Under the pieces are notes generated by a model, which saw nothing but the letters and a program-made list of their open reading frames with translations, searched no databases and was not told the origin of the DNA. Of a stretch of DNA of 17,003 bases, positions 1-16,649 are shown in pieces (the first letter of the stretch is position 1; the number at the start of each line of letters is the position of its first letter). Position numbers and translations under genes: made by a program. The stretch is from Candidatus Heimdallarchaeota archaeon (GTDB lineage: Archaea > Asgardarchaeota > Heimdallarchaeia > Heimdallarchaeales > Heimdallarchaeaceae). The stretch is from contig JABCTC010000060.1 of assembly GCA_018238545.1 (NCBI GenBank), positions 1 through 17,003 on the forward strand, read 5' to 3'.

Positions 1-5
1 GATCC

Positions 6-106
6 TCATGATTCTTCCCCTCAACGCACGTGAGGGGACCCACTTAAACGACGGTTAGACCGCCCCTGGCAAGTTTGACCAAGTTTCATGACGTGCGTAA
101 CTTAAG
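6..106 (-). ncRNA. Putative structured RNA element (multi-stem, pseudoknot) of unknown class; may extend beyond the window's left edge
   Basis: Locally GC-rich. Perfect 8-bp hairpin 16-23/31-38 whose 7-nt loop (24-30) is exactly complementary to 92-98. TCATGA at 6-11 and 86-91. Two further hairpins pair fully only on the minus strand via G-U (GGCGGU/ACCGUC, CUUGG/CCAGG). Confidence 0.4.
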
Positions 107-429
107 AAAACATTTCGAGAAGGTCCATGTATTACAATAACCCAGTCCCATATTTTATCACTTAACCTAGTACGTAAAAGGAGGAAAAGAGGTGAAATTA
201 TAACTAAGATGCCTACTAATAACAATAGTTCCCAATCTAAAGTGAATACAAAATTATTTTTTGTAAAAAGAACAAGAAACAGTGCTAATGGAGTAATTAC
301 GAAGAAGAGAATGAGGATATCCAAAATGAGTTTCTTCCTATTATATCTATAAAGATTAGTTTCATTTTTTTCGACAACAAAACCTGTTTTAACTTCTGTT
401 TGTTCTACAATATCAGTAGTTTTCCCCAT
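55..429 (-). CDS. Small hypothetical membrane protein (2 predicted TM helices)
   Basis: ORF 55..438; ATG at 429 preferred because a TTTTAAG TATA-like box lies at 459-465. Two hydrophobic stretches: LILDILILFFVITPLALFLVLF and LLLLVGILVIISPLFLLL. Confidence 0.7.
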   Translation of the reverse strand: MGKTTDIVEQTEVKTGFVVEKNETNLYRYNRKKLILDILILFFVITPLALFLVLFTKNNFVFTLDWELLLLVGILVIISPLFLLLRTRLSDKIWDWVIVIHGPSRNVFLSYARHETWSNLPGAV

Positions 430-476
430 GAGAATCAAAAGAACAATGCTATGTGTTACTTAAAATGTTTTCTTAA
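102..476. repeat. 14-bp perfect inverted repeat pair (102-115 TTAAGAAAACATTT / 463-476 AAATGTTTTCTTAA)
   Basis: Exact reverse complements read directly from the sequence; biological meaning uncertain. Confidence 0.5.
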
Positions 477-522
477 AACAGGTCATCTGGACTAGAATCG
501 GCTGTCTTTTGCAAGAATAATT

Positions 523-630
523 TGGCGGGCTAGAGGAGATTTGAACTCCTGGCCCTCAGGTTTTTTCGATGGGAAGGCTCTCCTGCCTATCTTAAAAGCC
601 TGCTGCTCTACCTAGCTGAGCTACTAGCCC
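523..630 (-). tRNA. tRNA-Lys(UUU) with 31-nt intron at canonical position 37/38 (intron 562-592); CCA encoded
   Basis: Reverse complement: GGGCTAG TA GCTC AGCTAGGTA GAGC A GCAGG CTTTTA [intron] A CCTGA GGGCC AGGAG TTCAAAT CTCCT CTAGCCC G CCA. The mature 77-nt sequence forms a cloverleaf. Confidence 0.97.
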
Positions 631-676
631 ATGAGTTAGAATATCTTACTCACGATGTTCTTTCATTAAGCTCTTT

Positions 677-690
677 TAATAAAACTTTCG
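677..690 (-). promoter_or_regulatory. BRE-TATA promoter of tRNA-Lys(UUU)
   Basis: Minus strand CGAAAG-TTTTATTA about 47 nt upstream of the mature 5' end. Confidence 0.55.
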
Positions 691-709
691 TTTTTAATCT
701 ATTTCTTAA

Positions 710-16540: not shown

Positions 16541-16649
16541 TGGCGAGCCTGGGCGGATTTGAACCGCCGACCGACGGATTAAGAGTCCGCTGCTTTAGGC
16601 GCTTGTCGAATACTTCGAAACAAACTCTACCTAACTGAGCCACAGGCCC
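16541..16649 (-). tRNA. tRNA-Lys(CUU) with 32-nt non-canonical intron at 22/23 (intron 16595-16626); CCA encoded
   Basis: Reverse complement: GGGCCTG TG GCTC AGTTAGGTA G [AGTTTGTTTCGAAGTATTCGACAAGCGCCTAA] AGC A GCGGA CTCTTAA TCCGT CGGTC GGCGG TTCAAAT CCGCC CAGGCTC G CCA. The mature form is 77 nt. Confidence 0.96.

What the first reader, a model, noticed from the sequence alone, without database searches (positions are those of the whole stretch)
6..106. Compact, densely paired, pseudoknotted RNA-like element on the minus strand that I cannot assign to a known family
Seen: the minus strand reads CUUAAGU-U-ACGCACG-UCAUGA-AA-CUUGG(UCAAACUUG)CCAGG-GGCGGU(CUA)ACCGUC-GUUUAAG-UGGG-UCCCCUCA(CGUGCGU)UGAGGGGA-AGAA-UCAUGA. 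There are three hairpins enclosed by a UCAUGA/UCAUGA helix. The whole 7-nt loop of the 8-bp hairpin is perfectly complementary to the ACGCACG just 5' of that closing helix, giving a pseudoknot. CUUAAGU can also pair with GUUUAAG, and AGGGG can alternatively pair with CCCCU (switch-like). Wobble pairs are G-U only on the minus strand, and GC content is well above background. The element overlaps the last codons and the UAA stop of the membrane-protein ORF. Inference: a candidate new archaeal ncRNA, riboswitch, ribozyme or 3'-UTR/recoding element, or a leader for the next gene beyond the window.
Basis: partly seen in the sequence, partly recalled or inferred. Interest (0 to 1): 0.7.

Follow-up and report, generated by a model that had tools for sequence, protein, structure and literature searches.

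The report
Transposon end with guide-RNA scaffold
The supposed new RNA is the last 98 bases of a many-copy IS607-type jumping element in a Heimdall (Asgard) archaeon; its hairpin and pseudoknot are the usual kind of scaffold for the guide RNA of the element's TnpB enzyme, read on the strand opposite to the one proposed, so it is a known kind of thing that RNA databases do not yet list.

Summary
Window 1-98 is not a single-copy host RNA. It is the right end (RE) of an IS607-family transposon with 27 copies in this 3.6-Mb Heimdallarchaeote assembly. Many copies lie at contig ends, and the window's contig starts inside one. Full copies (2.73 kb) encode an IS607 serine-recombinase TnpA and a 640-aa TnpB-like protein on the window's PLUS strand. 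The tnpB stop lies 51 nt before the repeat boundary at position 98. The window's copy matches the ~400-bp gene-less derivative.

- **Real parts:** They keep compensatory changes across the genus and in TnpB relatives only 40% identical.
- **Failed parts:** the two other hairpins, the UCAUGA closing helix and the CUUAAGU pairing (unique flank DNA) are not conserved.
- **Better fit:** a plus-strand stem (46-86) explains the middle better.

A loop pairing with the bases next to the guide is the published, functionally tested signature of IS607 and IS200/605 TnpB guide (omega/reRNA) scaffolds. The predicted guide is flank 99-~118. There is no Rfam match. This scan had already reached the same reading on other contigs of this genome. 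Verdict: new member of a known kind, low to moderate interest.

The parts
1..98 (+). Right end (RE) of an IS607-family element, of the ~400-bp gene-less subtype. It is cut on the left by the contig start. It holds the 3' module of the TnpB guide-RNA (omega/reRNA) scaffold.
   Evidence: There are 27 copies in the window's own genome, with a sharp common boundary at position 98 and unrelated flanks. The window copy is 96-100% identical to the mini-element copies and 86-91% to full-length copies. Full-length copies carry IS607 tnpA and tnpB on this strand.
16..38 (+). Hairpin H1: an 8-bp G+C-rich stem (16-23 with 31-38) with the 7-nt loop ACGCACG. In full-length copies it lies within the last ~11 codons of tnpB.
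   Evidence: 95-98% of cells are paired, and 5 of 8 pairs show two-sided changes in the 47-sequence set. The coding overlap was seen.
24..30 (+). 5' strand of the pseudoknot (the H1 loop).
   Evidence: It pairs with 92-98. Partner pairs observed: ACGCACG/CGUGCGU, ACACACG/CGUGUGU, AUGCACG/CGUGCAU, CGCAUAC/GUAUGCG, CACAUAC/GUAUGUG, CACAUGC/GCAUGUG and others.
92..98 (+). 3' strand of the pseudoknot: the last 7 bases of the element, directly before the guide.
   Evidence: Same calls as the 5' strand. The covariance model did not include the pseudoknot, so its pair counts do not depend on the model.
46..86 (+). Composite stem H2 (46-49 with 83-86; 53-59 with 74-80; 63-64 with 68-69).
   Evidence: RNAalifold predicts it on the plus strand. 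94-100% of cells are paired, with UA/UG and GU/AU alternation that keeps pairing only on the plus strand. The 40%-identity relatives show the analogous AAG...CUU-closed stem, seen by eye.
67..87 (.). TGGCAAGTTT (67-76) and CCAAGTTTC (79-87): a subterminal repeat. Its inverted copy, AATCTTGCCA, lies 33-42 nt inside the left end. Probably a DNA site for the TnpA recombinase, overlapping the 3' arm of H2.
   Evidence: The motif occurs at the same distance from both ends in 5 complete elements. TnpA binding itself is inferred, not tested.
99..118 (+). Predicted guide segment of the omega RNA (flanking DNA transcribed past the RE). The ~20-nt length is assumed from other TnpB systems.
   Evidence: Conservation stops abruptly at position 98 and the flanks differ in every copy. 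The role as a guide is inferred from the published architecture (PMC10711439).

Best explanation
Window 1-98 is the right end of an IS607-family transposon of a Heimdallarchaeote. Here it is most likely a ~400-bp gene-less derivative whose remainder was lost at the contig break.

Read on the PLUS strand, it is the 3' module of the guide-RNA (omega/reRNA) scaffold of the element's TnpB protein:
- hairpin H1 (16-38);
- stem H2 (46-86);
- a pseudoknot between the H1 loop (24-30) and the last seven bases of the element (92-98).

Transcription would run out of the element, so the next ~16-20 nt of flank (99-~118) become the guide. TnpB made by full-length copies would bind the scaffold. It would then be directed to DNA that matches the flank, that is, the empty or excised site, which favours retention and spread of the element.

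The same DNA also carries a probable TnpA-recombinase site (67-87).

Shown here: repeat status, boundaries, gene content and orientation of full copies, conservation and covariation of H1, H2 and the pseudoknot. Inferred: transcription, TnpB binding, guide use and TnpA binding.
For: (1) Repeat status. There are 27 copies with one sharp boundary and unrelated flanks, and at least 17 of them lie within 500 nt of a contig end.

(2) Gene content. Full 2,731-bp copies encode an IS607 transposase (NF033518, 170.9 bits against a cut-off of 110). They also encode a 638-647-aa protein with TnpB/Cas12f-type RuvC and zinc-ribbon matches (NF040570 E 3e-7; PF07282 E 3e-5 to 1e-4; PDB 8hr5 E 1.8e-4). Both genes are on the window's plus strand, and the tnpB stop lies 51 nt before the boundary.

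(3) Short derivatives. The 336-401-bp derivatives keep both ends. All four mini-element copies that include the left-end part share a TATA-like TTTATATA box on the plus (sense) strand.

(4) Structure.
- On 31 copies, 97.4% of cells are paired and 7 pairs show two-sided changes.
- On 47 copies, including a second genus and TnpB relatives at about 40% identity, 94.0% of cells are paired and 19 of 28 pairs show two-sided changes.
- No shuffle out of 500 reached the observed values on any measure, and slid controls gave 25-43%.
- The pseudoknot was not part of the search model.

(5) Strand.
- Plus-strand G-U against minus-strand G-U cells: 47 to 5 on alignment A1; 34 to 9 in H2b and 9 to 2 in H2c on the 39 closer rows of alignment A3.
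- Fold z-score is -3.51 on plus and -1.99 on minus.

(6) Literature. In IS607 ISXfa1, the reRNA derives from the right end and extends past it. A pseudoknot between an apical loop and the nucleotides flanking the guide is required for activity. The same is known for ISDra2 (PMC10711439). Mobilised standalone omega RNAs that act in trans are documented (PMC10691335).
Against: - No expression data were available, so neither the RNA nor its ends have been observed.
- TnpB matches to curated families are below their cut-offs.
- The family has His where solved relatives have the RuvC-III Asp, so nuclease activity is not assured.
- The window's own copy is truncated by the contig start. Its left end and promoter, and hence its status as an intact mini-element, cannot be shown.
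- The strand evidence from G-U counts rests on few independent substitutions among related copies.
- With sequences this similar, RNAalifold also finds a 98%-paired consensus on the minus strand.
- The 3' arm of H2 overlaps the putative TnpA site, so part of its conservation may be at the DNA level.
- No conserved target-adjacent motif was evident in ten left-end flanks.
Confidence: 0.85

Rival explanations
1. A DNA-level transposon end only. On this reading the conserved 98 bp serve as recognition and synapsis sites for the serine-recombinase TnpA. The inverted repeats reflect protein-binding symmetry or DNA hairpins, and no functional RNA exists.
For: A subterminal motif is shared in inverted orientation by both ends. 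The gene-less derivatives keep exactly the two ends. Inverted-repeat covariation alone cannot tell RNA from DNA.
Against: - Serine recombinases act on duplex DNA and need no hairpins (established knowledge of the family).
- Helices tolerate G-U on one strand only.
- The hairpin-plus-pseudoknot layout is kept in 40%-identity TnpB relatives whose end sequences are otherwise different.
- The pseudoknot is functionally required for TnpB in ISXfa1 (PMC10711439).
- H1 lies inside the tnpB coding region, 60-80 nt from the terminus.
Confidence: 0.08
2. One reading: a minus-strand structured RNA (ncRNA, riboswitch, ribozyme, 3'-UTR or recoding element of the membrane-protein ORF, or an antisense regulator of the omega RNA).
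For: The minus strand also folds (-34.6 kcal/mol). RNAalifold finds a consensus fold on the minus strand.
Against:
- One proposed helix uses unique flank DNA.
- The 27 copies sit in unrelated contexts, so there is no link to the ORF, which itself has no convincing homologue.
- Genes and promoter-like boxes of the element point the other way.
Confidence: 0.03
3. A dead relic. On this reading the window's copy is a solo right-end fragment left by deletion or rearrangement. It retains the scaffold sequence but is no longer transcribed or used.
For: Only 98 nt are visible. The genome holds degenerate copies, such as C51:3291-3381, which lacks half of H1, and C43:677-774, which has a flipped H1 loop.
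Against: The window copy is 100% identical over 98 nt to another contig end and 96-98% identical to complete mini-elements, and H1, H2 and the pseudoknot are all intact. The exact 98-nt length fits an assembly break (k-1 of a k=99 graph, inferred) rather than a biological truncation.
Confidence: 0.1

Closest known systems
reRNA/omega RNA of IS607-family TnpB (ISXfa1 of Xylella fastidiosa; Yoon et al., NAR 2023, PMC10711439)
   Same: It is encoded at the 3' end of tnpB on the same strand. It runs through the right end into the flank. It has stem-loops plus a pseudoknot between an apical loop and the nucleotides next to the guide. The partner transposase is an IS607 serine recombinase.
   Different: - No detectable sequence similarity and no Rfam hit.
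- The host is an Asgard archaeon.
- The TnpB is ~640 aa rather than ~400 aa and has His at the RuvC-III Asp position.
- The first base after the conserved part varies among copies here, so no fixed right-flanking nucleotide was seen. In ISXfa1 that base is fixed and belongs to the scaffold.
- No experimental data exist for this element.
ISDra2 (IS200/IS605) TnpB omega RNA, as described in PMC10711439 with reference to the cryo-EM structures
   Same: The pseudoknot forms between five or more nucleotides flanking the guide and an apical loop. The scaffold ends at the transposon boundary.
   Different: - The transposase is different (Y1 type, single-strand DNA mechanism).
- No sequence similarity.
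- The conserved module here is shorter (~83 nt from H1 to the boundary).
Standalone, mobilised omega RNAs lacking effector and transposase (Altae-Tran et al. 2021, as summarised in PMC10691335)
   Same: Gene-less multi-copy derivatives that keep the scaffold and would borrow the effector in trans. The ~400-bp subtype to which the window's copy belongs fits this description.
   Different: Trans use has not been tested here. For the window's copy itself, only the right end is visible.
RAGATH-18-derived reRNAs of IS607 TnpBs (Cell Res 2024, PMC11061315; abstract only read)
   Same: A conserved structured RNA downstream of IS607 tnpB that guides DNA cleavage.
   Different: Rfam 15 as a whole gave no match to the window or to full-length copies at E up to 1. 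I did not confirm that RAGATH-18 is among its families. The associated TnpBs in that paper average about 390 aa.

Membership tests
TnpB omega/reRNA scaffold of an IS607-family element | Lies at the 3' end of tnpB on the same strand, overlaps the end of the ORF and reaches the right-end boundary | tested here: met
   In full copies the tnpB stop is 51 nt before the boundary and H1 lies in the last ~11 codons. The window copy is the homologous end of a gene-less derivative.
TnpB omega/reRNA scaffold of an IS607-family element | Pseudoknot between an apical loop and the nucleotides directly before the guide | tested here: met
   Positions 24-30 pair with 92-98. Five of 7 pairs have two-sided changes, and 91-95% of cells are paired. 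The feature definition comes from PMC10711439.
TnpB omega/reRNA scaffold of an IS607-family element | Conserved scaffold followed immediately by a variable, locus-specific guide | tested here: met
   Conservation stops at position 98 in all 27 copies and the flanks are unrelated.
TnpB omega/reRNA scaffold of an IS607-family element | Partner proteins: an IS607 serine-recombinase TnpA and a TnpB with RuvC and a zinc ribbon | tested here: met
   TnpA scores above the curated cut-off (NF033518, 170.9 against 110). TnpB is recognised only below the cut-offs (NF040570 at 30.1 against 100; PF07282 at 22.6-24.6 against 26.3). Its RuvC-II, zinc-ribbon and RuvC-III block aligns to solved TnpB/Cas12f-type chains, with His at the Asp position.
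TnpB omega/reRNA scaffold of an IS607-family element | The RNA is made, bound by TnpB and directs DNA targeting next to a TAM | not testable with these tools
   No transcriptome or biochemistry was available. No clear TAM was seen in ten left-end flanks.
Any Rfam 15 family (4227 models) | Covariance-model score at or near the gathering threshold | tested here: not met
   There was no hit in window 1-700 at E up to 10 other than the neighbouring tRNA and chance matches. Full-length and mini copies gave no relevant hit at E up to 1.
   The 27 copies have unrelated neighbours. ORF 55-438 has no convincing homologue in 24 related genomes.
Non-autonomous (MITE-like) derivative of the IS607 element | Both ends of the autonomous element, no transposase or TnpB gene, multiple copies | tested here: inconclusive
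   This is met for the ~400-bp subtype (C43:96165-96564, C21:11427-11827). For the window's own copy only the right end is on the contig.

The most novel reading that the evidence does not exclude
The ~83-nt H1-H2-pseudoknot module may be the complete minimal guide scaffold of an unusually large (~640 aa) D-E-H-type TnpB family confined to Heimdall-group Asgard archaea. On this reading the dozen or so gene-less mini-elements act as a dispersed library of trans-acting guides for the few full-length copies. The same bases would double as the TnpA recombination site, coupling transposition and guide function in one 98-nt sequence.
Probability: 0.3. Interest if true: 0.5.

Novelty: new member of a known kind. 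Interest (0 to 1): 0.3.

Why it matters
The result removes a false lead: there is no new host ribozyme or riboswitch here. It also shows how contig ends in draft assemblies can present transposon termini as orphan 'structured RNAs'.

On the positive side, it defines a covariation-supported, Rfam-absent omega-RNA scaffold for a large His-type TnpB family in the archaeal group closest to eukaryotes. A working covariance model now exists, and the element boundaries and a predicted guide position are set. This is useful for annotating Asgard genomes. It also helps anyone who wants to test whether these oversized TnpBs are programmable nucleases. The biology is of a kind already described for bacterial IS607 and IS605 elements.

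Tried and rejected
- **Rfam.** Gathering and permissive scans of the window, of full-length copies, of a mini-element and of divergent relatives gave no relevant family.
- **ARAGORN.** No genes were found, although Rfam sees an intron-bearing tRNA at 526-630.
- **Group II intron end.** I considered this because of the GTGCG-like words. I dropped it because the element neither starts with GUGYG nor encodes a reverse transcriptase.
- **Empty-site search.** A DNA query of the window flank against 24 relatives matched only the tRNA gene. A protein query with the ORF found no convincing homologue. No uninterrupted target site was obtained.
- **'1 TAG inside' in many TnpB matches.** I suspected recoding. 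It is only the natural stop codon of a subfamily whose ORF ends three codons earlier.
- **Fanzor fingerprints.** I looked by eye for the DPG motif and the alternative Glu. Neither is present; the protein has GLDIN and a Glu about 50 residues before the zinc ribbon (criteria from PMC10711439).
- **Strand test by paired fraction.** The paired percentage of RNAalifold consensus folds on the two strands is uninformative at this level of sequence identity (98.8% against 98.4%).
- **Crossover dinucleotide and TAM.** A shared crossover dinucleotide or a TAM was not evident in the end flanks.

Full report
**What is at the coordinates.**
The window is the start of contig C74 of a 3.6-Mb, 128-contig assembly.

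Its first 98 bases are a repeat. BLAST and a covariance model each find 27 copies in the same genome. All copies share one sharp boundary at window position 98 and have unrelated DNA beyond it. At least 17 copies lie within 500 nt of a contig end. Two contigs (C74, C115) start with exactly the same 98 nt. I read this as a break in a k=99 assembly graph (inference). The length of the element as seen in the window is therefore an artefact.

**What the repeat belongs to.**
Extending the copies shows full-length elements of 2,731 bp, for example C71:12851-15581 and C82:18169-20899. It also shows short derivatives of 336-401 bp that keep only the two ends. On the strand that corresponds to the window's plus strand, the full copies encode two proteins:
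- A 248-aa protein that is an IS607-family serine-recombinase transposase. It matches NF033518 at 170.9 bits (cut-off 110) and has MerR and Resolvase domains.
- A 638-647-aa protein with sub-threshold but consistent TnpB/Cas12f matches (NF040570 E 3e-7, PF07282 E 3e-5 to 1e-4). Its C-terminal RuvC-II, zinc-ribbon and RuvC-III block aligns to solved TnpB/Cas12f-type chains (8hr5 at E 1.8e-4, 9nzq).

The tnpB stop codon lies 51 nt before the boundary, so the 98-nt module spans the last ~15 codons plus the 3' untranslated end. The window's copy is 96-100% identical to the short subtype, and only 86-91% to full copies. It has a stop in the tnpB frame, so it is most likely a mini-element end. Related contigs are titled Candidatus Heimdallarchaeota.

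**Which parts of the proposed structure are real.**
I aligned 31 plus-strand copies from this genome and congeners (A1). I then aligned 47 copies collected with a covariance model (A3). That set adds a second genus and the ends of TnpB relatives only about 40% identical in protein.
- The 8-bp hairpin H1 (16-23 with 31-38) and the loop-to-terminus pseudoknot (24-30 with 92-98) hold throughout.
- On A3, 94.0% of cells are paired and 19 of 28 pairs show changes on both sides, including 5 of 7 pseudoknot pairs.
- No shuffle out of 500 reaches the observed value on any of five measures, and slid controls give 25-43%.
- The pseudoknot was not in the model, so it is not fitted.
- Loop and terminus partners include ACGCACG/CGUGCGU, ACACACG/CGUGUGU, AUGCACG/CGUGCAU, CGCAUAC/GUAUGCG, CACAUAC/GUAUGUG and CACAUGC/GCAUGUG.

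GGCGGU/ACCGUC is paired in 51-66% of cells, CUUGG/CCAGG in 75-78% and UCAUGA/UCAUGA in 61-75%, whichever strand is assumed. RNAalifold on the plus strand instead finds a composite stem H2 (46-49 with 83-86; 53-59 with 74-80; 63-64 with 68-69). H2 is 94-100% paired. By eye, the distant relatives keep it as an AAG...CUU-closed stem of variable interior. Some relatives carry an extra GGG-GAAA-CCC hairpin between H1 and H2.

**Strand.**
- Genes of the full element run on the plus strand. A TATA-like box lies 32 nt upstream of tnpB, and another is conserved in the mini-element; both are on the plus strand.
- Substitutions that keep pairing only as G-U fall mostly on the plus strand: 47 against 5 cells on A1, and 34 against 9 in H2b and 9 against 2 in H2c on the 39 closer rows of A3. 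These cells represent few independent events among kin, so the support is moderate.
- The plus strand of 1-98 folds better than all 200 shuffles (z -3.51).
- A comparison of consensus folds on the two strands by paired fraction is uninformative at this identity.

**Mechanism.**
Published work on TnpB shows three things. First, the guide RNA (omega RNA or reRNA) is encoded at the 3' end of tnpB and runs through the right end into the flank, which supplies the guide. Second, a pseudoknot forms between an apical loop and the nucleotides flanking the guide; it is present in ISDra2 and is required for activity of the IS607 element ISXfa1, where a compensatory mutation partly rescues the defect (PMC10711439). 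Third, standalone, mobilised omega RNAs that act in trans are known (PMC10691335).

The anatomy found here matches point for point. I therefore read window 16-98 (+) as the scaffold core and 99-~118 as the guide. TnpB would be supplied by full-length copies.

The motif TGGCAAGTTT (67-76) recurs, inverted, 33-42 nt inside the left end of every complete copy. I take it to be a TnpA site that overlaps the 3' arm of H2 (inference). Transcription, TnpB binding, cleavage and TnpA binding are all untested. The family carries His at the RuvC-III Asp position (T-H-x-N-A-A against A-D-x-N-A-A). Changes of this type are catalogued in other TnpB branches (PMC10691335), so nuclease activity is open.

**Distribution and novelty.**
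The covariance model finds the module in 20 of 23 sampled genomes of the genus and in 2 of 2 genomes of a second genus of the family. It finds none in the other 20 genomes of the order sampled, at E 0.001 with strict filters. TnpB homologues occur in 32 of 40 genomes searched, own genome included. No Rfam family matches. This is a new member of a known kind.

Notes from this scan on other contigs of the same genome had already described the same element, its mini-derivative, the pseudoknot covariation and the His-type TnpB. I reached the reading before opening those notes. I re-tested the pseudoknot and the His position myself.

**The neighbouring ORF.**
ORF 55-438 (-) runs into the element and takes its last codons and stop from it. 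It has no convincing homologue in 24 related genomes.

Noticed in passing
window 16544-16602 (-): A 59-nt tRNA-like sequence (RF00005, 33 bits) with no D-arm at all. Its anticodon loop is CUCUUAA (CUU) and the acceptor stem has two mismatches. It may be a tRNA fragment or an attachment-site remnant.
   Followed up: partly
window 526-630 (-): A tRNA gene with a 32-nt insert after the anticodon loop, intron-like (RF00005, 54.2 bits). ARAGORN reports nothing in the whole window.
   Followed up: partly
window 102-115 and 463-476: TTAAGAAAACATTT, inside the predicted guide segment, has an exact inverted copy 350 nt away, next to the tRNA 3' end. The three guide bases nearest the scaffold (99-101) do not match, so it is not an obvious TnpB target. 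Unexplained. Another first-stage note on this window also lists it.
   Followed up: partly
G000:C43:677-774: In one copy of the module the H1 loop is flipped: the plus strand reads CGTGCGT instead of ACGCACG. This is an inversion across the 8-bp stem, and it abolishes the pseudoknot.
   Followed up: no
L009:203-2146 (-) and homologues (alignment A2): The whole ~640-aa TnpB family has T-H-x-N-A-A where solved TnpB/Cas12f-type proteins have A-D-x-N-A-A. That puts His at the RuvC-III catalytic Asp, while the four zinc-ribbon cysteines are kept.
   Followed up: partly
L031-L033 and L035-L042 (relatives' genomes): TnpB relatives at about 40% identity sit directly beside tRNA genes. In different genomes the DNA just past their right ends is conserved, which suggests fixed or site-specific copies whose guides match tRNA-gene DNA.
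   Followed up: no
L023, L026 (relatives' genomes): A subfamily of tnpB ends three codons earlier. A single T inserted in the 3' arm of H1 creates a TAG stop there. This explains the '1 TAG inside' flags in the genome search.
   Followed up: yes
L076-L086 (second genus, G040/G041): These copies carry an extra GGG-GAAA-CCC-type hairpin between H1 and H2. The window's family has lost it, and the distant relatives also have it. It is an optional scaffold module.
   Followed up: no
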